Counted from the first letter of the stretch, positions 13,696-21,916 are shown. The stretch: 64,000 bases of DNA from a virus (IMGVR_UViG_3300037312_001491:1-64000); one strand, 5' to 3'. Notes: a model not told the origin generated them from the sequence alone. Numbers and translations: made by a program.

Positions 13696-13827
13696 GACGG
13701 ATGAAAATTGAGCCAGGACTTTTGTACTTGCGCTCTATCCGCTGAGCTACGAGGCCCTTGCGATCCCCGGAGGGAGTTGAACCCTCGACCTCAAGTTCCG
13801 ATGGTGATCCTGATTCGACGACCCGCC
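13696..13827 (-). ncRNA. yrlA: YrlA-like Y RNA with tRNA-like domain
   Basis: Terminal stem GGCGGGT/ATCCGTC; T-arm GAGGG-TTCAACT-CCCTC precedes a GCAA-capped acceptor-like stem and D-arm TAGCTCAGCGGATAGAGC, the permuted order described for YrlA; adjacent to Ro gene. Confidence 0.8.
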
Positions 13828-13944: not shown

Positions 13945-15597
13945 CTATTCCTCGTCCTCGTTCTTTTCGACCGGCGCCGCCTCACCACGGACGAAATCCG
14001 AGATGATCGCAGGGAGTGCGGCGTCGAAGCCGACGACGTCCATCATGCCGGAGTCGCCGGGGTCGGCGATGGTTTGCGCGGTCGCGACCATGCCAACGAC
14101 AACCGAGCGCGCGTCGACGCCCGAACGCCGGCGGTAGTCCTGGAGCGCGATGTGCGGATGGCGCGCGCCGCGGAAGGTCTCGTTGTCCGTGTAGACGACG
14201 AAGCCGGCCGGCTTGGCGCCCGTCTGGATGGCCCACTCGAACGGCAGCGAGCAGTCCGTCGCGCCGTACGGGATGCGGCCCATGACGTGGCACGCCTCGG
14301 CGAGGCGCATCGACTTGTTGATCGGCACCTCGACGAAGTGGTGCGAGAACCCCATCAGGTGGTAGTTCGGCTCCGCGTGCGCCGTGACGAGCGCCATCGC
14401 CGCCGCGGCCTCGCGGCAGCTGAGCAGGCCGTTCGCGGTGCTGTGCGAGGTCATCGAGCCCGACACGTCGAGCGCGAGCAGCATCGGCTTGCCGACCGGC
14501 ACGACGTTGCCGAACGAGCCGTAGAACGCGGCATCGAGCGCGTCGTTGACGACCTGCACTGGCGTCCAGGACAGCTCGCCCTTGAGGCCGTGGCCGCGCC
14601 CGTACATCTTCGCCGCGATGAGCACGGCCATCGGGTGGACGCGCGAGCGGCGCAACGCCTCGCCATCGGCGAGACGGGCAGCGACGTACATCGACGCGTC
14701 CGACAGCGGCGCGATGAGGCCGACCGCGGTCATCTTGGCGAGGTTGCGGATCAGTGCGGTCGGCGGCATGCCGTACTTGCCGGCGCGCAGCAGCGCGTCC
14801 CACACCTCGACGTTGTTGAGGTGCTGCGTCGGGATGGCCTCGCGCGGCAGACCGTAGTCGCGGATGAGTGAGATGAGGCGCTTGACGTCGCACGTCTTGG
14901 CCTCCTCGAACGCCTGAATCGTCGCCGGCAGGACGAGCCCGTCGGCGTAGCTCGTGCGCGCCCACCGGTAGATCGCGCCGTGGTCGGGCGTCGCCGGATG
15001 CGGGTGCGCGAGCTTGATGAGATCGCGCGCGGCCCAGCCGTCGCGCTGCTGGTACTTCACCAGCTGGTACGCGAGGTCGGAGGCCGACTTCTCGTTGAAC
15101 CACTTCGCGACCGCGCGGCGCATGCCGCGGCCCCAGCCGTGTCCCATCGACTCGACGAACGCGACGAAGTGGTAGAGGTGCGTGCCGGTGCGGCAGACCT
15201 TGGGCAGCGCCTCGTAGGCGAGCTGGCGCGTGTTCTCGTGGTGGTGCCGCGCCTCGGGGTCCTCGACGCCGACGTTGGCGGCGATGGCGAGCGCGAAGAT
15301 GGCGGGGTTGTTCTTGGGCGCGCGGCCCGACTCCGAAATCTCGACGATGCGGCGGACCAGGCGCGCGCCGTCCGCGAGCGCGAGGCGCAACACGACGAGC
15401 GCGTTCTCGCGCGAGAGCTTGCGCTCGTCGACGTAGAACGTGCCGCCCTCGCTGCCGAGGATCAGGAAGCGGTCCAGGCGGGACCAGTCGTCGACGACGA
15501 AGCTGAATCCTCCTGCGTGGTTGGGTGCCTGGCTGGGGTGCGCCTGCTCGGTCTGCGGGACGGGTCCCAGGGCGTTCTTCAAGTGCTCGATCGACAT
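13945..15597 (-). CDS. rsr: Ro60/Rsr RNA-binding protein (TROVE + vWA)
   Basis: NHAGGFSF.VDDWSRLDRFLILGSEGGTFY, GRAPK, VCRTGTHLYHF, GWGRGMRRAV, LVKYQQRDGW, ALDVSGSM, VYTDNET. Confidence 0.95.
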   Translation of the reverse strand: MSIEHLKNALGPVPQTEQAHPSQAPNHAGGFSFVVDDWSRLDRFLILGSEGGTFYVDERKLSRENALVVLRLALADGARLVRRIVEISESGRAPKNNPAIFALAIAANVGVEDPEARHHHENTRQLAYEALPKVCRTGTHLYHFVAFVESMGHGWGRGMRRAVAKWFNEKSASDLAYQLVKYQQRDGWAARDLIKLAHPHPATPDHGAIYRWARTSYADGLVLPATIQAFEEAKTCDVKRLISLIRDYGLPREAIPTQHLNNVEVWDALLRAGKYGMPPTALIRNLAKMTAVGLIAPLSDASMYVAARLADGEALRRSRVHPMAVLIAAKMYGRGHGLKGELSWTPVQVVNDALDAAFYGSFGNVVPVGKPMLLALDVSGSMTSHSTANGLLSCREAAAAMALVTAHAEPNYHLMGFSHHFVEVPINKSMRLAEACHVMGRIPYGATDCSLPFEWAIQTGAKPAGFVVYTDNETFRGARHPHIALQDYRRRSGVDARSVVVGMVATAQTIADPGDSGMMDVVGFDAALPAIISDFVRGEAAPVEKNEDEE

Positions 15598-15786
15598 TCG
15601 GCCCTCCTCGCGAGTCTGTGATTGTCCAGGAGACGCGCGGTGCGCGCGAAAAATTCCGCGTGATTGTGTCGCCTCCGCCCGGCCGGAACCGCCAGGAATA
15701 CGTAAATTTACTAATTGACGATGTCCTTTCAGCCATGTAGCTATGGGCCACGCGCTTGCAGTGCGTTAACCTCGAAGGAGAGAGTC

Positions 15787-16392
15787 ATGGTGAACATCAA
15801 CGCGAATACGAGTTTGGAAGGTGTCGAGGCTACCATCACCACGCTCCAGGAGCAGATCGACGAGTTGAAGTCTCGTCTCCGCCTGGCGCGTGGAACGGAC
15901 GACCTCACCAAAGCCGCGGCCGATGCCGCACGCAACGCAGCCGCGGTCACGCCGCTGCCTCGGCCGCTGACGCTGGAGGAACAGATCGAGGCGCACCTGC
16001 GCCGACAGATCATGACCACCACGCAGCTCTCCAAGGCGCTCGGCGTGCCGACGGACCAGGTGCTCACCTCCATCAAGAGGATGCGCTCGAAGGTCCACAA
16101 CCTCGGCACGACCGACTGCGCGCGCTGGTCCTGGCGCATCGGCAGCGACGCCTCGCCGGCCGAGCTGCGCGCGCTGGTCGAGCGCCTCATCTCGTTCATG
16201 CCGCTGGAGTTTCGCGAGATCGTCACGGCCACCGGCGCTCGCGACGGCCTGGTGCAGGGTCACCTGGTGGAGCTGCGGAAGGTGAAGAACGTCGTCGACC
16301 TCGGCGCCGGTTCGTCGTCGAAGGCGCGGTGGTTCCTCATGCCCGAGAACGCTCGGGACGCCAGGCTGCCTCGTCGCGGCAAGACGGAATAG
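15787..16392 (+). CDS. Putative DNA-binding protein: N-terminal coiled coil plus two winged-helix-like repeats
   Basis: MTTTQLSKALGVPTDQVLTSIKRM...W and LEFREIVTATGARDGLVQGHLVEL...W; GAAGGAG RBS; TTGACG promoter at ~15715. Confidence 0.6.
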   Translation: MVNINANTSLEGVEATITTLQEQIDELKSRLRLARGTDDLTKAAADAARNAAAVTPLPRPLTLEEQIEAHLRRQIMTTTQLSKALGVPTDQVLTSIKRMRSKVHNLGTTDCARWSWRIGSDASPAELRALVERLISFMPLEFREIVTATGARDGLVQGHLVELRKVKNVVDLGAGSSSKARWFLMPENARDARLPRRGKTE

Positions 16393-16557: not shown

Positions 16558-16582
16558 CCAGGCGTAATAGCCGAAAGCCGTC

Positions 16583-16620
16583 GAGGGCGCCCCGGGAAAC
16601 CGCGGCGCCCTTTTCGTTTT
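16583..16620 (+). terminator. Intrinsic terminator (attenuator) upstream of tRNA array
   Basis: GAGGGCGCC-C-CGG-GAAA-CCG-C-GGCGCCC followed by TTTTCGTTTT. Confidence 0.85.
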
Positions 16621-16621
16621 C

Positions 16622-16709
16622 GGGAGCGCAGACCGGCGTGGCTCCGGGCCTGGCCGTAACCCAGGCTGCCTTCGGGCACAGGATGGTTCGATTCCGTCCG
16701 CTCCCACCA
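16622..16709 (+). tRNA. trnY: tRNA-Tyr(GTA), long variable arm
   Basis: GGGAGCG/CGCTCCC, CCTGG-CCGTAAC-CCAGG, CCA end. Confidence 0.8.
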
Positions 16710-16787
16710 CCCCCCTCTCACCCAGGGGACTGACAACTGAATAGCTGACGACGACGAGGTCGGGCCCGCGTGGGCTCGGCCATTCAC

Positions 16788-16861
16788 TCGGGGATCGTTC
16801 AATGGTAGGACGTCGGTTTCTGGAACCGGCTATCCAGGTTCGAGTCCTGGCCCCCGATCCA
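16788..16861 (+). tRNA. trnQ: tRNA-Gln(CTG)
   Basis: Loop TT-CTG-GA, T-arm CCAGG-TTCGAGT-CCTGG, CCA. Confidence 0.9.
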
Positions 16862-16862
16862 T

Positions 16863-16935
16863 GTCCCTCGCGTATGGCTGGTGCGTACGCCTGGTTGAAG
16901 CCCAGGAGGCTGAGGTTCGATTCCTCGGGGGGACA
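16863..16935 (+). tRNA. trnF: tRNA-Phe(GAA)
   Basis: CCTGG-TTGAAGC-CCAGG. Confidence 0.85.
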
Positions 16936-16940
16936 CGAGA

Positions 16941-17009
16941 GGGGAGGCGTGGGTCCGAATCCCACCGTCCGGCCTGGTGCCGGGCGAAGTGCTGCGGTGG
17001 CACGCCCCC
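16941..17009 (+). ncRNA. Circularly permuted tRNA-like element 1
   Basis: Closing stem, T-arm GTGGG-TCCGAAT-CCCAC, closed acceptor-like stem CGTCCGGC/GCCGGGCG, AA, D-like arm GTGC-TGCGGTG-GCAC. Confidence 0.6.
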
Positions 17010-17015
17010 GTTTTT

Positions 17016-17090
17016 GGGCCGCTAGCTCCAATGCAGAGCAACGGGTTCTTACCCCGCTGGTTCTGGGTTCAAGTCCCAGGCGACCCACCA
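17016..17090 (+). tRNA. trnK: tRNA-Lys(CTT)
   Basis: Loop TT-CTT-AC, CCA. Confidence 0.85.
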
Positions 17091-17100
17091 CGCGTTCGTC

Positions 17101-17175
17101 GAGTCCGCAGCTCTCAGGTAGAGCACGCGCCTTTTAAGCGAGGAGGTGCAGGTTCGACTCCTGCCGGACTCACCA
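17101..17175 (+). tRNA. trnK: tRNA-Lys(TTT)
   Basis: GAGTCCG/CGGACTC, loop CT-TTT-AA, CCA. Confidence 0.9.
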
Positions 17176-17282
17176 TAAGCCGACAGCGGCACCTGGTTGC
17201 CGGGCGCGCGATGACGATCGGCGCGCGAACGATGAAGCGCGGACCCAAGTCCGTCAGCCGAGTTGAACCAGGAGATCTTTCT

Positions 17283-17355
17283 GCGGCTGTGCCCAGGGTG
17301 GGCAGCGAGAGTGCCACTCTTGCCTCGGTGGGTTCGATCCCCATCGGCCGCTCCA
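17283..17355 (+). tRNA. trnG: tRNA-Gly(GCC)
   Basis: CGAGA-GTGCCAC-TCTTG, U73, CCA; short D-loop. Confidence 0.75.
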
Positions 17356-17356
17356 T

Positions 17357-17432
17357 TGTAGCCGAGGGTTCGATTCCCTCCCAAGGGAGCTGCGCAAGCA
17401 GCGCGACCGGGGCGTTAGGGTACGGGGCTACA
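17357..17432 (+). ncRNA. Circularly permuted tRNA-like element 2
   Basis: TGTAGCC/GGCTACA closing stem, T-arm GAGGG-TTCGATT-CCCTC, GCAA-capped stem GCTGC/GCAGC, D-like arm CGT-TAGGGT-ACG. Confidence 0.55.
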
Positions 17433-17436
17433 GCTT

Positions 17437-17511
17437 GCGGGTGTCGCGCTCAAGGTGAGCCAGCGGTCTTCCACACCGCCCAGGCGGGTCCGATTCCCGT
17501 CGCCCGCTCCA
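17437..17511 (+). tRNA. trnG: tRNA-Gly(TCC)
   Basis: GCGGT-CTTCCAC-ACCGC, U73, CCA. Confidence 0.85.
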
Positions 17512-17512
17512 C

Positions 17513-17586
17513 GCCGATGTAGCTCCGAGGTGGAGCAGTGGTCCCGTAAACCACCGGGCTGGGTTCGACTCCCAGCGTCGGCTCCA
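17513..17586 (+). tRNA. trnT: tRNA-Thr(CGT)
   Basis: GTGGT-CCCGTAA-ACCAC, CCA. Confidence 0.85.
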
Positions 17587-17588
17587 GT

Positions 17589-17661
17589 GCCCTCCAGGCG
17601 TCCGTGGGAACGCGCCGCACTTGTAATGCGGATGTGGCCGGTTCGACTCCGGCGAAGGGCT
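17589..17661 (+). tRNA. trnT: tRNA-Thr(TGT)
   Basis: CCGCA-CTTGTAA-TGCGG. Confidence 0.85.
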
Positions 17662-17666
17662 CCGAT

Positions 17667-17743
17667 GTATCCCTCGTATCTCTGGTGAGTACGGCGGCCT
17701 GTTAAGCCGAGAGAGCTGGGTTCGATTCCCAGGGGATACGCCA
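17667..17743 (+). tRNA. trnN: tRNA-Asn(GTT)
   Basis: GTATCCC/GGGATAC, loop CT-GTT-AA, G73, CCA. Confidence 0.85.
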
Positions 17744-17745
17744 AC

Positions 17746-17820
17746 GGCCCATGAGTCAGCTGGTGTGGACGGCAGCCTCTCAAGCTGTCGAGCCGGGATC
17801 GTAACCCGGATGGGTCACCA
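17746..17820 (+). tRNA. trnE: tRNA-Glu(CTC)
   Basis: GCAGC-CTCTCAA-GCTGT; atypical T-loop ATCGTAA; CCA. Confidence 0.85.
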
Positions 17821-17827
17821 AATTTTT

Positions 17828-17904
17828 GCCTCCGCAGCTCGACTGGATCGAGCACACGGCTACGGACCGTGGGGTTGCAGGTTCGACTCCTGCCGGAGGC
17901 GCCA
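17828..17904 (+). tRNA. trnR: tRNA-Arg(ACG)
   Basis: CACGG-CTACGGA-CCGTG, CCA. Confidence 0.9.
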
Positions 17905-17905
17905 T

Positions 17906-17980
17906 GGGATGCAGCGCGCGGGCCGCGCCGCCGGTCTCCAAAGCCGTGCAGAGAGGGTTCGATTCCCTCGCATCTCGCCA
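17906..17980 (+). tRNA. trnW: tRNA-Trp(CCA)
   Basis: Loop CT-CCA-AA, G73, CCA. Confidence 0.8.
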
Positions 17981-17981
17981 T

Positions 17982-18054
17982 CGCAGCGACCCAGGGCGCC
18001 GGAGCGGCCCATAACCGCCACCGCGTAGGGGTTCGAGTCCCCCCGCTGCGACCA
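17982..18054 (+). tRNA. tRNA(CAT), elongator Met or Ile2
   Basis: CGCAGCG/CGCTGCG, GCGG-CCCATAA-CCGC, CCA. Confidence 0.7.
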
Positions 18055-18055
18055 C

Positions 18056-18136
18056 GCGGGCTTGAGGTGGCGCCGCCGACGAGGTCTAGAACGACTCGGT
18101 GGGCGTTCGCCGGTGCGAATCCGGCGACCCGCTCCA
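18056..18136 (+). tRNA. Atypical tRNA-like gene, anticodon ambiguous (hairpin contains TCTAGAA)
   Basis: Acceptor GCGGGCT/GACCCGC plus TCCA and T-arm GCCGG-TGCGAAT-CCGGC present; D arm unclear, irregular extended anticodon arm. Confidence 0.5.
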
Positions 18137-18142
18137 ATTCAC

Positions 18143-18217
18143 AGAGGGATAGCCTACTGGGCAGGCGCTTGTTTCGGGAACAAGATCAGGCGGGTTCGAT
18201 TCCCGTTCCCTCTACCA
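18143..18217 (+). tRNA. trnP: tRNA-Pro(CGG)
   Basis: AGAGGGA/TCCCTCT, CTTGT-TTCGGGA-ACAAG, CCA. Confidence 0.85.
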
Positions 18218-18218
18218 C

Positions 18219-18294
18219 GCGGGGCAGCTCACCTGGCGGTGGGATCACTCCTACAAAATGACCGCGCAGAGTCCGATTCTCTGGCCCCGCACCA
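18219..18294 (+). tRNA. trnV: tRNA-Val(TAC)
   Basis: GCGGGGC/GCCCCGC, loop CC-TAC-AA, CCA. Confidence 0.8.
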
Positions 18295-18381
18295 TCCATG
18301 AACGCAGGCCCGCACAACTCCCCCGGACGCACGAGCGTCGCGAAAGTGGAGGCCATGCCGGGAAGGGCGCTGTGTTCACAT

Positions 18382-18455
18382 CCGTTGCTAGCTCAAAGCA
18401 GAGCGTCCGCTCGATAAGCGGAGGGTTGCAGGTGCGAGTCCTGCGCGACGGACCA
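18382..18455 (+). tRNA. trnI: tRNA-Ile(GAT)
   Basis: TCCGC-TCGATAA-GCGGA, CCA. Confidence 0.85.
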
Positions 18456-18536
18456 TGCGGGGAAGCGGAGCAGGTGCATGCCGCGGGGGGCTCATAACCC
18501 CCATTAGCCGGGTTCGAGTCCCGTGTCCCGCTACCA
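18456..18536 (+). tRNA. trnM: tRNA-fMet(CAT), initiator-like
   Basis: GGGGG-CTCATAA-CCCCC (consecutive G-C pairs), unpaired first acceptor position, ACCA end. Confidence 0.75.
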
Positions 18537-18600
18537 ACGCGAGCGACCCGCGCCCAGGTCGTGGCTAGCGCTCGCGCCGAGCGCCGACAACAGACGTCAT

Positions 18601-18676
18601 GGTGCCTATAGCTGTAGTGGTCGCACGGCGGATTGTGTCTCCGCAAGGGCGGGTTCGATTCCCGCTAGGTACCCCA
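18601..18676 (+). tRNA. trnH: tRNA-His(GTG)
   Basis: G-1:C73 pair, GCGGA-TTGTGTC-TCCGC, CCA. Confidence 0.85.
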
Positions 18677-18703
18677 CACACGTGCTAATCCAGGAGGAGA
18701 GTC

Positions 18704-19255
18704 ATGCAGGCCGAGAGCTTCGCGACGAACGAGCAGACCCTAGTCCTCGACCCTGGCATGCGCCCGGTCGAGGTCGTGCACTGGACGCGCGCCGTCGCGC
18801 TCTGGTTCCAGGACAAGGCGGAGGTCATCGCCGAGTACGATGGCTTCGCGCGCTCGTCCTCGCTGGTGATCAAGATCCCGGCTGTGGTTCGCCTCCTGCA
18901 TGCGTTCAAGCGCGACCGGAAGCCGGTCAAGTTCTCGCGCGTGAACATTTACGCCCGCGACGGCTACCGCTGCCAGTATTGCGGCGGCAAGTTCACGATG
19001 GGTGAGCTGACCTACGACCACGTTGTCCCCCGCTCGCGTGGGGGAAAGACGAGCTGGGAGAACATCGTGTCCGCGTGTCACGCATGCAACCGCCGCAAGG
19101 CGTGCCGCACGCCGGAGCAGGCGGGAATGAAGCTCCGCAAGGTGCCCGTGCAGCCGCAGGCCGTGCCGGTGCTCGTGATCCCGCTGTCGAGGAAGACCGT
19201 CCCCGACGCGTGGCGCGACTACCTGTACTGGACCGGCGAACTGGACCGGGACTGA
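18704..19255 (+). CDS. HNH endonuclease (tRNA-array associated type)
   Basis: FSRVNIYARDGYRCQYCG...TYDHVVPRSRGGKTSWENIVSACHACNRRK. Confidence 0.95.
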   Translation: MQAESFATNEQTLVLDPGMRPVEVVHWTRAVALWFQDKAEVIAEYDGFARSSSLVIKIPAVVRLLHAFKRDRKPVKFSRVNIYARDGYRCQYCGGKFTMGELTYDHVVPRSRGGKTSWENIVSACHACNRRKACRTPEQAGMKLRKVPVQPQAVPVLVIPLSRKTVPDAWRDYLYWTGELDRD

Positions 19256-19362
19256 TCGAAAAGCCGTAGCGCGTCCGCAAAGCGCGTGAAGGCACGGCGC
19301 ACGAGGGGCAACCCGACCGCAGAAGCGGAGCCGCAACGGCCCTCCAGTGGGCCTCGTGTTTT

Positions 19363-19436
19363 GGTCCTGATTTCACCGGGTGGTGATGCGCCGCTGTCTA
19401 CGGCGTCGAGGAGGGGTTCGAGTCCCCCCAGGACCG
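19363..19436 (+). tRNA. trnD: tRNA-Asp(GTC)
   Basis: GGTCCTG/CAGGACC, CGCCG-CTGTCTA-CGGCG, G73. Confidence 0.85.
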
Positions 19437-19441
19437 CGAAT

Positions 19442-19513
19442 GGGCGCGTAGCTCAACGGGTGAGCGCTCCGCTGGCTGCGGAGAGGTTGCGGGTTCGAGT
19501 CCCGCCGTGTCCA
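19442..19513 (+). tRNA. trnA: tRNA-Ala(GGC)
   Basis: G3:U70 pair, CTCCG-CTGGCTG-CGGAG. Confidence 0.9.
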
Positions 19514-19519
19514 CGAAAC

Positions 19520-19594
19520 GGGGCCGTCATTCTAACGGGAAGATTCCTGGTCCGCACCCAGGCGATGTCGGTTCGATTCCGACCGGTTCCACCA
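19520..19594 (+). tRNA. trnA: tRNA-Ala(CGC)
   Basis: G3:U70 pair, CCTGG-TCCGCAC-CCAGG, CCA. Confidence 0.85.
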
Positions 19595-19595
19595 C

Positions 19596-19670
19596 GCCGA
19601 TGCAGCTCCTCTGGCGGAGCACTCGCCCGGTACGCGAGAGGGTCGGGTTCGAGTCCCGACGTCGGCTCCA
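19596..19670 (+). tRNA. trnT: tRNA-Thr(GGT)
   Basis: CTCGC-CCGGTAC-GCGAG, CCA. Confidence 0.85.
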
Positions 19671-19677
19671 GTTTCGA

Positions 19678-19752
19678 TCGGGGTTCGTCTAATCGGTAGG
19701 ACGGCGGACTTTGGATCCGCCTATGAGGGTCCGAGTCCCTCGCCCCGAACCA
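19678..19752 (+). tRNA. trnQ: tRNA-Gln(TTG)
   Basis: GCGGA-CTTTGGA-TCCGC, CCA. Confidence 0.9.
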
Positions 19753-19753
19753 C

Positions 19754-19826
19754 GCGCCGGTGGTCGAATGGAAAGGCACGGAGCTGCAACCTCCGCACAT
19801 CGCGAGTTCGATTCTCGCCCGGCGCT
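19754..19826 (+). tRNA. trnC: tRNA-Cys(GCA)
   Basis: CGGAG-CTGCAAC-CTCCG, U73. Confidence 0.9.
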
Positions 19827-20227
19827 CAAAGTAGTCCGTGATCAAATTCCCAATGGTGGTTCGGACACAAGAAGCGAATGTTCGAGCGCGCGTTCACCTC
19901 GACGAGTGGTGTGCTGTCGGGGAACGTGCTCAGCGCGACAACGTGACAGACCTCGACGTGCTTTGAGTAACCGCAGACCTCACATGATGCGCGCAGTCGC
20001 TCTGTGCGGTGCGTGGTGCGCGCTCGTTCTCGCACGTACGCGTGAAGCCAGGACGGATGACGGCCACGAAGGGACAAGAGGCGTCGCACGTCTCCGATTG
20101 TGATCACCCGGATGCTGTCGAGGCGGCGCTCTCGGCAATCAGAGCAGAACTCGGAACGATACTTGTTCTTCGCGATCTGCCAGGTCGCGCCACAGTTCTT
20201 GCAGCTTCGGATATGGGGCTGCCGCAT
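19826..20227 (-). CDS. HNH endonuclease-family protein, antisense inside tRNA array
   Basis: CKNC..FCSDC N-terminus; CEVCGYSKHVEVCHV...SNIRFLCPNHHWEFDH. Confidence 0.8.
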   Translation of the reverse strand: MRQPHIRSCKNCGATWQIAKNKYRSEFCSDCRERRLDSIRVITIGDVRRLLSLRGRHPSWLHAYVRERARTTHRTERLRASCEVCGYSKHVEVCHVVALSTFPDSTPLVEVNARSNIRFLCPNHHWEFDHGLL

Positions 20228-20267
20228 CTCGAAAGTCTTACGCCGCGAGATGCACCCGAACTTCCTT

Positions 20268-20344
20268 GTTCCCGTCGCCTCGCAGGATGAGGTACCGCAC
20301 TCCTAATGCGGATAGTGCAGGTTCGAGTCCTGCCGGGGACACCA
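20268..20344 (+). tRNA. trnR: tRNA-Arg(CCT)
   Basis: CCGCA-CTCCTAA-TGCGG, CCA. Confidence 0.9.
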
Positions 20345-20345
20345 C

Positions 20346-20417
20346 GGTTCCGTGACAGGATGTCGACCCGACGATCCGAACGTCGGCGGCCGGGTTCGAG
20401 TCCCGGCGGAATCACCA
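20346..20417 (+). tRNA. trnR: tRNA-Arg(CCG), 6-bp anticodon stem and small D arm
   Basis: GGTTCCG/CGGAATC, CCGACG-ATCCGAA-CGTCGG, CCA. Confidence 0.7.
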
Positions 20418-20419
20418 AC

Positions 20420-20497
20420 GGCCGCGCGGCAAACTGCTGGTGTGGTAGCCGGCTTTTCACCCCGGTGCTTCGGGTTCGATTCCCGCCGCGGTCACCA
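20420..20497 (+). tRNA. trnE: tRNA-Glu(TTC)
   Basis: Loop TT-TTC-AC, GGCCGCG/CGCGGTC, CCA. Confidence 0.75.
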
Positions 20498-20510
20498 TCG
20501 TCGTCAGCTT

Positions 20511-20598
20511 GGCGTCGGAGAGGGCAACAGGTGCCCTACCGGTCTCGAAAACCGGGTGCCCCGAAAGGGGCCGGGTTCAACCCCTAACGGCGCCGCCA
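20511..20598 (+). tRNA. trnS: tRNA-Ser(CGA), long variable arm
   Basis: CCGGT-CTCGAAA-ACCGG, GCCCC-GAAA-GGGGC arm, G73, CCA. Confidence 0.8.
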
Positions 20599-20599
20599 T

Positions 20600-20683
20600 G
20601 GAAGGACAGCCGGTGCAGGTGCCCGGAGCCGTTTGCTAAACGGATGTGCCCGCAAGGGTCGGGTTCGAGTCCCCGTTCTTCCG
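20600..20683 (+). tRNA. trnS: tRNA-Ser(GCT), long variable arm
   Basis: GGAAGGA/TTCTTCC, loop TT-GCT-AA, GCCC-GCAA-GGGT arm, G73. Confidence 0.8.
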
Positions 20684-21916
20684 CTACTTCTTCGGTGGGT
20701 GGTCCGTCGTCGCCGGCAGCGCCGCCCAGCGTGACAACGCGATCTCTTCGGGCGTGACGGCGCCGGCAGCCATCGCCAGTGCGTCGGCGCGCGCGAGGTC
20801 GAGGCGCGCCTGCGCCAGCTCGCCGGCCTTCGCGCTCGTCTCCCATGTGCCGCCAAGGGGGCGGTCCCACTCGGGTAGTGGGATCGCGATGCAGTAGAAG
20901 TGGCCGCGCACCGGCACGTTGATCAGCAGGCGCGTCCCGCCGAAGTGCACGCGCACATCGATGGCGGCCTCGCTCGCGGTGTCCTTGTCGAACTGCTCGC
21001 CCACGAGCTTGTGCGCCAGCTCCATCGCCAGCCGGTCGTAGTCGATGGACGGCGCGCGGCTCGCGACGGCGCGTTCGACGCAGCGGCCGATGCGGCGCAG
21101 CTTCTCCTGCGGCGTCTCGACGAACACGTCGACGGCGATGCCGGCGGGCCGGCAGGGCTCGATGGCTGCACGCACGCGGCGCTCCCAGCGCCAGTCGACG
21201 TTGTCGTCACCCTCGGTGATGACGATGCGGACGTCGCCGGGCTGCGGCTCCTTGACCTCGACCTCGCGCACACCGGGGACCATCTTCGCCATCACGGCGA
21301 GCTGGGTGCGCGTGCAGTTGCGGTAGAACAGCGCCAGGTCTTCGTGGTCGTTGTGGTAGCCGTTCGGTGTCTTGCCGAGCAGGATGAACTCGGGGATGCC
21401 GTAGATGCCGGCAATCTTCCGGGTGAAGTCGTTCATCAACTCAGGAAGCCCCGCGAGAGGCGACGAGCCCCAGAGGCCGAGCCGGTCCAGAAGCTGCGGT
21501 ACCGTCGGTCCGTGGTCGACCGTGAGCAACGCGGCGTCGCGCGCGCTCGCGTGGACGTTGATGGCGATCTTCACCTCGGCGTCCGGCGGCACGTCGTGGT
21601 CACAGTCGACCCGCAGGACCGTCTTGCCCTCGGCGTCGATGAACAGCATGTGACGGACGGCGGCCGACTCGGCGGCCCGGAACTTGACGACGTCCACGAT
21701 GCCGTCCCAGGGCACACGCCGCGCGTCGCGGCCGTCTCGCGTGCGCAGGACGATGGCGACCACGCGCCGGCGGAGCTGGCACGGGCGGCACGCGCAGTTC
21801 ACGACGTGACCGGGCTCACCCCGGTGACGCGGGGGGACCGCGCCGTCGCAGCCGAGCGCGCACTGGACGTACGCGCCGATGACGGGGATGCCGGGGTGGC
21901 CGCAGGGGGCGTTCAC
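20684..21916 (-). CDS. Chimeric protein containing a portal-like segment and a baseplate-J-like segment
   Basis: PLAGLPELMNDFTRKIAGIYGIPEFILLGKTPNG aligns with this phage's portal; MVPGVREVEV...PCRPAGIAVDV resembles baseplate J C-terminus. Confidence 0.6.
   Translation of the reverse strand: MNAPCGHPGIPVIGAYVQCALGCDGAVPPRHRGEPGHVVNCACRPCQLRRRVVAIVLRTRDGRDARRVPWDGIVDVVKFRAAESAAVRHMLFIDAEGKTVLRVDCDHDVPPDAEVKIAINVHASARDAALLTVDHGPTVPQLLDRLGLWGSSPLAGLPELMNDFTRKIAGIYGIPEFILLGKTPNGYHNDHEDLALFYRNCTRTQLAVMAKMVPGVREVEVKEPQPGDVRIVITEGDDNVDWRWERRVRAAIEPCRPAGIAVDVFVETPQEKLRRIGRCVERAVASRAPSIDYDRLAMELAHKLVGEQFDKDTASEAAIDVRVHFGGTRLLINVPVRGHFYCIAIPLPEWDRPLGGTWETSAKAGELAQARLDLARADALAMAAGAVTPEEIALSRWAALPATTDHPPKK

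What the first reader, a model, noticed from the sequence alone, without database searches (positions are those of the whole stretch)
16941..17009. Circularly permuted tRNA mimic opened at the anticodon (element 1)
Seen: order is anticodon-like stem strand, T-arm (TCCGAAT loop), 8-bp acceptor-like stem closed by a CTGGT loop, AA linker, D-like arm with GG, then the closing strand. This is a tRNA with its ends at the anticodon loop and no CCA end, placed between tRNA-Phe and tRNA-Lys. It matches the YrlA tRNA-like domain topology but lacks a Ro-binding helix. Inference: an elbow-shaped decoy or an anticodon-nicked tRNA mimic for nucleases, RtcR-like sensors or RNase P/Z. tRNA scanners would likely miss it.
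Basis: partly seen in the sequence, partly recalled or inferred. Interest (0 to 1): 0.75.

Follow-up and report, generated by a model that had tools for sequence, protein, structure and literature searches.

The report
Sealed, permuted tRNA mimic in phage
Between two tRNA genes of an uncultured soil phage lies a roughly 70-base RNA gene shaped like a tRNA with its parts in rotated order, its acceptor end sealed and no anticodon; it is a stripped-down, divergent relative of the known YrlA "Y RNA" tRNA mimics, and its function has not been tested.

Summary
Window 16941-17009 reads, in order: closing strand, 4-nt linker, T-like arm, 8-bp hairpin sealed by CTGGT, AA, D-like arm with GG, closing strand. 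All 21 pairs are standard.

Three tests support it. A descriptor for this order hits only this site in the window. Rotating the sequence and adding an anticodon loop makes ARAGORN call a tRNA. A covariance model built only from other phages' YrlA-type modules scores it 33.8 bits (E 5e-8), against 61 bits for the phage's own YrlA.

tRNA-Phe ends 5 nt upstream and tRNA-Lys starts 6 nt downstream, so there is no room for a Ro-binding handle. The phage encodes Ro60 1.3 kb away.

Relatives give mixed evidence. One near-identical phage (metagenome contigs, partial view) and one unrelated phage keep the fold with compensatory changes. The only fully syntenic relative has a degenerate version without a D arm.

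Most likely it is a real small RNA released by tRNA processing that acts as a tRNA mimic. Function and expression are untested.

This scan has noted permuted tRNA-like modules in phage tRNA arrays many times on other DNA. The handle-less, sequence-divergent form is the only new point here.

The parts
16861..16936 (+). tRNA-Phe(GAA), upstream neighbour. By my reading the acceptor 3' strand ends at 16934 and the discriminator is A16935; no CCA is encoded.
   Evidence: ARAGORN; sequence
16936..16940 (+). 5-nt spacer CGAGA. GAG (16937-39) can extend the closing stem by pairing with UUU (17011-13) across an A-G mismatch.
16941..16944 (+). Closing stem, 5' strand GGGG (equivalent to the 3' strand of a tRNA anticodon stem)
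16945..16948 (+). 4-nt linker AGGC in the position of the variable loop. It is the same 4 nt in L231 and L209, and AGGA in the X6 relative.
16949..16965 (+). T-like arm GTGGG-TCCGAAT-CCCAC. The loop has C where tRNAs have U55. The arm contains GGTCCGA.
16966..16986 (+). Sealed acceptor-like hairpin: 8 bp (CGTCCGGC/GCCGGGCG, one G-U pair) closed by CTGGT. Pairing probability in the ensemble is 0.97-1.0.
16987..16988 (+). AA linker in the position of tRNA nucleotides 8-9
16989..17003 (+). D-like arm GTGC-TGCGGTG-GCAC with GG in the loop
17004..17009 (+). G (position-26 equivalent) followed by the closing strand CCCCC
17010..17015 (+). GTTTTT tail, directly before tRNA-Lys. A U-run is kept in the syntenic relatives L089 (TTCTTTT) and X6.
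17016..17090 (+). tRNA-Lys(CTT), downstream neighbour. RNase P cleavage at its 5' end would create the 3' end of the element.
   Evidence: ARAGORN, Rfam; the cleavage is inferred
13945..15597 (-). Context: phage Ro60/Rsr gene (TROVE plus Ro60 vWA domains), 1.34 kb from the element on the opposite strand
   Evidence: Pfam
13709..13814 (-). Context: the phage's YrlA-like RNA downstream of rsr. Its tRNA-like module (13726-13795) scores 61 bits with R1.

Best explanation
The element is a genuine small structured RNA gene. It is a stand-alone, handle-less version of the YrlA-type tRNA-like module: a circularly permuted tRNA body with T arm, sealed 8-bp acceptor-like stem and D arm, closed by a short stem where the anticodon stem would be.

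It is transcribed as part of the polycistronic tRNA array. It is released as a piece of about 80 nt by the enzymes that mature its neighbours: 3' processing of tRNA-Phe and RNase P cleavage at the 5' end of tRNA-Lys. Its two ends then pair with each other (inferred).

With no anticodon and no CCA it cannot decode. It still presents the tRNA elbow and the acceptor/T minihelix. It therefore most likely works by occupying proteins that recognise tRNA shape, either as an accessory partner of the phage's Ro60/YrlA RNA-surveillance module or as a decoy for tRNA-directed host factors.

Shown: the fold pattern, its statistical support, its placement, and partial conservation with compensatory changes. 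Inferred: transcription, excision, the L-shape, and any binding partner.
For: - Arm order, spacers and pairing are exactly those of the YrlA tRNA-like domain (structure line).
- R1, built without this sequence from 20 modules of other phages, scores it 33.8 bits (E 5e-8), full length, with one non-standard pair. The only better non-junction hit in the whole 88-kb genome is the phage's own YrlA.
- The rotated sequence is called a tRNA by ARAGORN. Five other spacers of the same array are not.
- All 21 pairs are standard pairs, which does not look like a decaying sequence.
- A relative whose flanking tRNAs are 90-99% identical where its contigs align (run X6) carries, in the same slot, a sequence less than 80% alike. 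Its visible 30-nt ends read CCGG, AGGA, GCGGG-TTCGAGT-CCCGC, GG ... CC, TG, GGCG-TAATGGGAAG-CGCC, G, CCGG. That is the same architecture with compensatory changes in the closing, T and D stems.
- L231 6286-6358, from an unrelated phage, matches the 5' 33 nt at 30 of 33 positions. It has a different but paired D stem (GTCT/GGAC), scores 47 bits, and passes the rotation test.
- The alternative rod pairing that RNAfold prefers in the window (GGCGTG with CACGCC) is not possible in L231 or X6, whereas the four helices are.
- Bare modules flanked by tRNAs at 3-5 nt exist elsewhere (L214 8433-8518 and 8524-8597), so this is a recurring design.
- Ro60 and YrlA are encoded 1.3-3 kb away.
- The slot has kept tRNA-like length (79, 84, at least 70 nt) in relatives whose Ro60 is only 56% identical.
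Against: - There are no expression data.
- In L089, the only fully readable syntenic relative, the slot keeps the closing stem, a 5-bp hairpin and a 7-bp GNRA hairpin. It has no D arm, no GG, and the loop AGCGAAG in place of a T loop. It fails both the rotation test and R1.
- The nearly invariant D and T sequences of YrlA are not kept here (alignment).
- The T loop has C at position 55, and the D loop lacks A14 and A21.
- RNAfold's minimum free energy structure is a rod about 7-8 kcal/mol more stable than the tRNA-like junction, and fold z-scores are weak.
- The X6 evidence rests on 60 visible letters from two contig ends.
- L231 may be a paralogue and not an orthologue.
- The phage has no RtcB and no CCA-adding enzyme that would tie the element to tRNA repair.
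Confidence: 0.5

Rival explanations
1. Evolutionary relic without a function of its own. It could be the junction of two former tandem paralogous tRNAs, or a truncated YrlA copy, caught before decay. Its tRNA likeness would then be history, not function.
For: - Junctions of tandem tRNAs score as well as this element with R1: 37 and 35 bits at the tRNA-Leu triplet. Chen et al. 2014 warn of exactly this false-positive class.
- The L089 homologue looks like a decayed version.
- The second tRNA-sized slot (17356-17436) also has a T-like hairpin but fails the tests.
- The sequence deviates from tRNA and YrlA consensus at positions 55, 14 and 21.
Against: - No mismatch occurs in any of 21 pairs.
- The acceptor-like strands are perfectly complementary and sealed by only 5 nt, unlike real junctions, which show several mismatches there (alignments).
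- Compensatory changes occur in X6 and L231.
- The slot persists in a compact array, where most spacers are 0-10 nt, across deep divergence.
Confidence: 0.25
2. A structured spacer acting in cis on the array transcript, with tRNA likeness incidental. It could be a partial intrinsic terminator or attenuator, or a nuclease-blocking or processing structure. The working part would be a GC-rich closing stem followed by a U-run just before tRNA-Lys.
For: - A closing stem followed directly by a U-run is the one feature shared by the window (GTTTTT), X6 and L089 (TTCTTTT).
- L089 keeps the stem, two hairpins and the U-run although its tRNA features are gone.
- The array is already preceded by a terminator-like hairpin at 16565-16611.
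Against: - The terminator scan does not call it.
- Only 5 U follow a branched structure with a 4-bp closing stem, which is a poor terminator design.
- L231 has the module without a U-run.
- In the window and X6 the U-run can instead pair with the purine-rich 5' flank.
- A terminator here would cut off about 25 downstream tRNA genes.
Confidence: 0.15
3. A bona fide third Y RNA of this phage that binds its Ro60 directly despite lacking the long handle. Binding would use GGUCCGA in the T arm, GGCGAAG at the acceptor/D junction, or the 8-bp end stem with an A-G mismatch plus the 3' U tail. This is a special case of the best explanation.
For: - GGTCCGA at 16952 is the heptamer that Chen et al. 2014 cite as contacted by Xenopus Ro60, and GGCGAAG at 16983 fits their GNCGAAN0-1G motif.
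- rsr is 1.34 kb away.
- Of the 58 R1 matches in rsr loci, most of the best-scoring ones lie within 1 kb of rsr.
Against: - GGTCCGA is one base away from the commonest T-arm sequence and occurs 9 times in the window. It is not kept in X6, L231 or L089.
- The GNCGAA motif occurs in 6.6% of random 70-nt windows and is not enriched upstream of phage modules (6 of 58).
- The element lies on the opposite strand from rsr, unlike reported YrlAs.
- A module of this kind occurs in a complete phage genome without a TROVE hit (L209).
Confidence: 0.12
4. A permuted gene for a working tRNA, matured through circularisation as in the red alga Cyanidioschyzon merolae.
For: The 3' half precedes the 5' half, and the rotated sequence is tRNA-like.
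Against: - No anticodon-loop nucleotides are available. Joining the ends would give a loop of 10-11 nt.
- No CCA or processing motif lies in the 5-nt CTGGT loop.
- The phage has no RtcB ligase.
Confidence: 0.02

Closest known systems
YrlA (Rfam RF02553), tRNA-like Y RNAs bound by bacterial and mycobacteriophage Ro60/Rsr (Chen et al. 2014, PMC4201824)
   Same: The order and spacing are identical: short stem, about 4 nt, T arm, sealed acceptor-like stem, 2 nt, D arm, stem. It lies within 4 kb of a Ro60 gene, and it is found in a phage. A model of phage YrlA-type modules recognises it.
   Different: It has no long basal helix or Ro-binding module, because tRNA genes abut it at 5 and 6 nt. The nearly invariant D and T sequences are not kept. 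It is on the opposite strand from rsr. It has no Rfam hit even at E 10. Its R1 score is half that of the phage's own YrlA.
Mycobacterium smegmatis YrlA, cut by RNase P in its sealed 7-bp acceptor stem and given CCA in vivo (Chen et al. 2014)
   Same: It has a long (8-bp) fully paired acceptor-like stem stacked on a 5-bp T stem. This is the feature those authors name as the determinant of RNase P cleavage.
   Different: Cleavage is untested here. The stem is 8 bp, not 7 (a G-1:C73-type extra pair), and the loop holds no CCA.
Circularly permuted tRNA genes of Cyanidioschyzon merolae and some archaea (own knowledge; reviewed in PMC3400036 and PMC4238349, found and not read in depth)
   Same: The 3' half is encoded before the 5' half, with the acceptor ends joined by a short intervening sequence.
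   Different: Those genes yield functional tRNAs with an anticodon loop via a circular intermediate. This element has no anticodon loop and no sign of such maturation.
Junctions of tandem tRNA genes, a known false-positive class for YrlA models (Chen et al. 2014)
   Same: They score alike with R1.
   Different: This element overlaps no tRNA gene. There is no room for the missing halves. Its acceptor strands are perfectly complementary and sealed by 5 nt.
Stable non-tRNA RNAs in the phage T4 tRNA cluster (species 1 and 2 RNAs; own knowledge, not checked here)
   Same: They are small stable RNAs of unknown function, co-transcribed with phage tRNAs and released by tRNA-processing enzymes.
   Different: No sequence or fold comparison was made here, and they are not known to be permuted tRNA bodies.

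Membership tests
YrlA (RF02553) | tRNA-like domain with order T arm, sealed acceptor-like stem, 2 nt, D arm, enclosed by a stem | tested here: met
   (model structure line) compared; R1 full-length match at 33.8 bits
YrlA (RF02553) | Reaches the Rfam gathering score (69 bits) | tested here: not met
   No YrlA match overlaps 16937-17015 even at E<=10. The phage's own YrlA reaches only 30.4 bits.
YrlA (RF02553) | Long basal helix or Ro60-binding module 5' and 3' of the tRNA-like domain | tested here: not met
   tRNA-Phe ends 5 nt upstream and tRNA-Lys starts 6 nt downstream. At most an 8-bp end stem with one mismatch can form.
YrlA (RF02553) | GNCGAAN0-1G motif near the 5' end (Chen et al. 2014) | tested here: inconclusive
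   There is no motif near the 5' end. One GGCGAAG lies at 16983, at the acceptor/D junction. The motif has a 6.6% background rate and is not enriched in phage loci.
YrlA (RF02553) | Nearly invariant D-arm and T-arm sequences (GUAGCUCA..GGUAGAGC; GGUUCRAnUCC) | tested here: not met
   In the alignment the D arm reads AAGUGCUGCGGUGGCAC and the T loop reads UCCGAAU.
YrlA (RF02553) | Encoded within 4 kb of Ro60 on the same strand | tested here: not met
   The distance is 1.34 kb (met), but the element is on + and rsr is on -.
YrlA (RF02553) | Bound by Ro60/Rsr; carries tRNA modifications | not testable with these tools
   Needs pull-down and modification mapping.
tRNA (RF00005) | Cloverleaf in the order acceptor, D, anticodon, T, with a 7-nt anticodon loop and a free acceptor end | tested here: not met
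   No call by ARAGORN or Rfam. It is called a tRNA only after rotation plus an inserted loop.
Permuted tRNA genes (C. merolae type) | Both halves together hold a complete tRNA, including the anticodon loop, that can be rejoined | tested here: not met
   The ends would give a 10-11-nt loop with no canonical anticodon loop. No RtcB is present.
Intrinsic terminator | Simple GC-rich hairpin directly followed by a run of T | tested here: inconclusive
   The scan does not call it. A branched structure followed by GTTTTT is present, and the U-run is kept in L089 and X6.

The most novel reading that the evidence does not exclude
Phage tRNA arrays carry a class of minimal, handle-less, anticodon-less, acceptor-sealed tRNA mimics that do not depend on a Ro-binding helix. 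They would be excised at no extra cost by tRNA-processing enzymes.

They would turn over quickly between otherwise near-identical phages: the slot differs by more than 20% in X6 while the flanking tRNAs are 90-99% identical. They would serve as decoys or sponges for host tRNA-directed defence nucleases or other tRNA-shape readers.

A further possibility is that RNase P opens the sealed loop, as in M. smegmatis YrlA. This would give a two-piece, anticodon-less tRNA body whose G-1:C73 pair mimics tRNA-His identity.
Probability: 0.15. Interest if true: 0.75.

Novelty: new variant of a known kind. Interest (0 to 1): 0.4.

Why it matters
If the RNA is made and stable, the tRNA-like module of Y RNAs can exist and be selected on its own, without the Ro-binding handle. 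That would separate the still unexplained role of tRNA mimicry in YrlA from Ro tethering and give a minimal object to test.

It would also add a non-decoding component to the large tRNA arrays of phages. Those arrays are currently read only as codon supply or as replacements for tRNAs cut by host defences.

If it is only a relic, it remains a useful warning: compact phage tRNA arrays hold tRNA-sized slots of tRNA-derived sequence that scanners miss.

Tried and rejected
The closest Ro60 relatives (P0001 at 99%; P0003-P0012 at 55-59% on contigs of 34-108 kb) could therefore not be fetched, except the one also held in IMG/VR (L089).
Of these only L148 is partly syntenic, and its spacers are unrelated.
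- Flanking proteins 15715-16392 and 20684-21916 have no relatives in viral contigs.
- Searches of GenBank phages found nothing useful: no near matches, and only generic tRNA and HNH hits in distant mode.
- The DNA pattern from the tRNA-Phe anticodon arm found other, non-syntenic arrays. The pattern from the tRNA-Phe 3' end found one unrelated AT-rich phage.
- The genome contigs pattern from the element's 5' half hit only ordinary tRNA genes, mostly tRNA-Leu.
- No RNA holder is listed for this phage.
- X4 and X5 contigs are identical to the window across the element, so they add nothing.
- Neither half of the element resembles any particular tRNA of the array.
- L219 514-585 looks like a tRNA junction with an encoded ACCA and was not counted as a bare module.
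- L202 3806-3872 has a poorly paired acceptor stem and was not counted.
- Chance was considered and rejected, given.
- Coding sequence was considered and rejected. The ORFs over the site lack the strong GC3 signal of real genes in this genome.
- A minus-strand tRNA was considered and rejected.

Full report
**Setting.** The window is the first 64 kb of a complete (by CheckV's estimate) 88,095-bp IMG/VR virus record with 67.6% G+C. It has no close relative among GenBank phages. A compact plus-strand tRNA array runs from 16622 to 20684. ARAGORN genes there at default settings, and at relaxed settings calls six more plus-strand tRNAs in spacers that default settings left empty. An HNH endonuclease gene lies inside the array. 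About 1 kb before the array, on the minus strand, lies a Ro60/Rsr gene (13945-15597; TROVE 1e-44, Ro60 vWA 2e-56). It is followed by a YrlA-like RNA at 13709-13814 (RF02553, 30.4 bits, below the gathering score).

**The observation.** In order it holds GGGG, AGGC, GTGGG-TCCGAAT-CCCAC, CGTCCGGC-CTGGT-GCCGGGCG, AA, GTGC-TGCGGTG-GCAC, G, and CCCCC, followed by GTTTTT. All 21 pairs are standard; one is G-U. No tool for known RNAs sees it.

**Is it more than chance?**
- A descriptor for the arm order (T arm, sealed stem of 6-9 bp, 1-3 nt, D arm with GG, closing stem) hits only this site in the window. It hits 0.017 times per shuffled window, and 2.7% of shuffles when the T arm is kept. I wrote the descriptor after seeing the element, so I looked for independent tests.
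- On 93 phage loci that encode Ro60, the same descriptor finds 22 sites. All but three lie within 1 kb upstream of rsr on its strand, where YrlA is expected.
- I aligned 20 such modules from other phages, checked the structure (94% of cells paired), and built model R1.
- With filters off, R1 gives 61.1 bits for the phage's own YrlA module. It gives 37 and 35 bits for two junctions of the tandem tRNA-Leu genes, 33.8 bits (E 5e-8, full length) for the element, lower scores for other tRNA junctions, and at most 12 bits for anything outside tRNA genes. In the whole genome these are the only two hits that are not tRNA junctions.
- Rotating the element (5' half placed after 3' half) and inserting any 7-nt loop makes ARAGORN call a tRNA with an 8-bp acceptor stem at default threshold.
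- A systematic rotate-and-scan gives calls for the element, for the phage's YrlA, and for modules from L231, L209 and L214. It gives none for five other spacers of this array or for the two L089 spacers.

The observation therefore stands.

**Thermodynamics is not decisive.** RNAfold prefers a rod (-41.7 kcal/mol) in which GGCGUG pairs with CACGCC. The tRNA-like junction scores about -34 kcal/mol, and z-scores are -1.3 and -2.5. Two real tRNAs of the array (the two tRNA-Lys) are also not folded into cloverleaves by the same program. The rod pairing cannot form in the relatives described below.

**Relatives.** Three comparisons are available.

1. *L089.* This 107.9-kb IMG/VR phage has Ro60 56% identical and shares the array order Gln(CTG), Phe, slot, Lys(CTT), Lys(TTT)..., Gly(GCC), slot, Gly(TCC), Thr, Thr, Asn, Glu.
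   - Its 84-nt Phe-Lys slot aligns poorly with the window, while the flanking tRNAs account for most of the invariant columns (the three-part alignment averages 80% column identity).
   - It keeps a 6-bp closing stem, a 5-bp hairpin with loop AGCGAAG, a 7-bp hairpin with a GUGA loop, and a U-run. Several changes are compensatory.
   - It has 21 unpaired nucleotides without GG where the D arm should be. It fails R1 and the rotation test.
2. *Run X6.* Logan contigs of a groundwater metagenome carry the flanking tRNAs at 90-99% identity where they align, but break off at 16938 and resume at 17010.
   - The loose ends are 53 and 70 nt long, with 30 nt of each shown. They read AAG CCGG AGGA GCGGG-TTCGAGT-CCCGC GG... 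and ...CC TG (TG) GGCG-TAATGGGAAG-CGCC G CCGG T.
   - This is the same architecture with a canonical T loop and a GGG D loop. The closing stem (GGGG/CCCC to CCGG/CCGG), the T stem (U-A to C-G) and the D stem (GUGC/GCAC to GGCG/CGCC) all show compensatory differences.
   - The middle of that variant is not visible.
3. *L231.* A degenerate pattern search of IMG/VR found L231 6286-6358 in an unrelated phage fragment with lower G+C in the stretch read.
   - It reads GGGGG AGGC GTGGG-TTCGAGT-CCCAC, a 5-bp hairpin, TG, GTCT-AATGGCA-GGAC, A, CCCCC.
   - It matches the element's first 33 nt at 30 positions. It scores 47 bits with R1 and 20 bits with RF02553, and it passes the rotation test.
   - No TROVE gene lies in the 38 kb held, which is 57% complete.

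In summary, two relatives keep the fold with compensatory changes and one has lost half of it.

**Is the design found elsewhere?** R1 finds many stand-alone modules inside phage tRNA arrays.
- Two in L214 sit in tandem between tRNA-Asp and tRNA-Pro with spacers of 3, 5 and 3 nt. RNAfold folds one of them into the four-way junction unaided. Bare modules therefore recur.
- L209 8610-8681 is a clean module. It has the same AGGC linker, and GCCA directly follows the acceptor 3' strand. It lies in a complete 118-kb phage genome with no TROVE hit. A divergent Ro-like protein is not excluded there.
- Most of the best-scoring R1 matches in rsr loci lie within 1 kb upstream of rsr on its strand, as published for YrlA (Chen et al. 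2014).
- This scan's notebook holds hundreds of earlier notes of permuted tRNA-like modules in phage arrays. In most of those shown to me the module is mounted on a basal 'handle'. Those notes are leads and I did not test them.

**Membership.** The element has the YrlA topology. It fails the other defining features:
- no Rfam hit;
- no room for a basal helix;
- divergent D and T sequences;
- the opposite strand from rsr.

GGTCCGA in the T arm equals the heptamer that Chen et al. cite as the Ro60 contact in Xenopus Y RNA, and GGCGAAG at 16983 fits their GNCGAAN0-1G motif. Both are weak evidence. The first is one base from the commonest T-arm sequence and is not conserved in relatives. The second has a 6.6% background rate and is not enriched near phage modules. 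I therefore file the element as working like a YrlA tRNA-like domain, but not as a member of RF02553.

**Mechanism.**
- Shown: the fold pattern, the placement, and partial conservation.
- Inferred: the array is transcribed through the element, since no promoter or terminator is called nearby. RNase P at the tRNA-Lys 5' end and 3' maturation of tRNA-Phe (which has no encoded CCA) free a piece of about 80 nt. Its ends pair as GAGAGGGG with CCCCGUUU, with one A-G mismatch. The X6 variant can form the same extended stem with the same mismatch.
- What the molecule offers: a tRNA elbow and a 13-bp acceptor/T stack, but no anticodon and no CCA.
- A testable prediction: the 8-bp sealed stem is the feature that made M. 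smegmatis YrlA an RNase P substrate, so nicking at the CTGGT loop can be tested.
- Partner: I cannot name one. The neighbouring Ro60/YrlA module is the obvious candidate system. The phage has no RtcB and no CCA-adding enzyme.

**Rivals.** I give 0.25 to a relic of a tRNA junction or a YrlA copy. I give 0.15 to a cis-acting stem plus U-run, which is the only feature shared by all three syntenic versions. Direct Ro60 binding is a sub-case of the main reading at 0.12. A permuted gene for a working tRNA gets 0.02.

**Verdict.** The element is a new variant (handle-less and sequence-divergent) of a known kind. Interest is moderate.

Noticed in passing
window 17356-17436: This is a second tRNA-sized slot, between tRNA-Gly(GCC) and tRNA-Gly(TCC). 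It holds a closing stem TGTAGCC/GGCTACA, a canonical T-like hairpin GAGGG-TTCGATT-CCCTC and a GCTGC-GCAA-GCAGC hairpin. It has no clear D arm, scores 17.8 bits with R1 and fails the rotation test. The slot is kept at 85 nt in L089 without a T loop, and is replaced by unlike sequence in run X6.
   Followed up: partly
window 17283-17355, 17980-18053, 18219-18294, 20338-20417, 20420-20497, 20511-20598: Six non-canonical tRNA genes are found only at relaxed ARAGORN thresholds: Gly GCC, a Met-like CAT, Val TAC, Arg CCG, Glu TTC and Ser CGA. Several have odd D arms or anticodon loops, and most encode CCA.
   Followed up: partly
window 17437-17511 and 18219-18294: tRNA-Gly(TCC) and tRNA-Val(TAC) have T loops TCCGATT, with C at the near-universal U55 position, like the element. 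The L089 tRNA-Gly(TCC) has the normal TTCGATT.
   Followed up: no
window 16939-17009 and 17355-17435 versus run X6: In a groundwater relative the tRNA genes are 90-99% identical where its contigs align, but both non-tRNA slots are replaced by sequence less than 80% alike. Ordinary spacers (16709-16737, 17100-17115) are also full of substitutions and deletions. It is unresolved whether the slots are swapped as cassettes or simply evolve fast.
   Followed up: partly
L214 8433-8597 (minus strand), identical in L256: Two bare permuted tRNA-like modules lie in tandem between tRNA-Asp and tRNA-Pro, with spacers of 3, 5 and 3 nt. Their D and T sequences are close to the YrlA consensus. No TROVE gene lies in the 47-kb fragment.
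   Followed up: partly
L209 8604-8686: A clean permuted module has GCCA (discriminator plus CCA) directly after the acceptor 3' strand, inside the sealing loop. It lies in a complete 118-kb phage genome without a TROVE hit. This suggests that some modules are opened into CCA-ended two-piece molecules.
   Followed up: partly
L148, L143, L138, L092: In several metagenomic phages the Ro60 gene is inserted inside the tRNA array on the same strand, with tRNA genes directly on both sides.
   Followed up: no
L231 6233-6284: Directly upstream of the L231 module lies a piece of about 52 nt with a 6-7-bp acceptor-like stem (GCTAGG/CCTAGC) and a T arm (TGCCG-TTCGATT-CGGCA), but no D arm or normal anticodon arm. 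It may be a tRNA mini-mimic.
   Followed up: no
window 16710-16787, 18295-18381, 18533-18601, 19828-20267: Further non-tRNA spacers of 69-440 nt lie in an otherwise tightly packed array. The first three give no permuted-tRNA signal. The 440-nt gap was not examined.
   Followed up: partly
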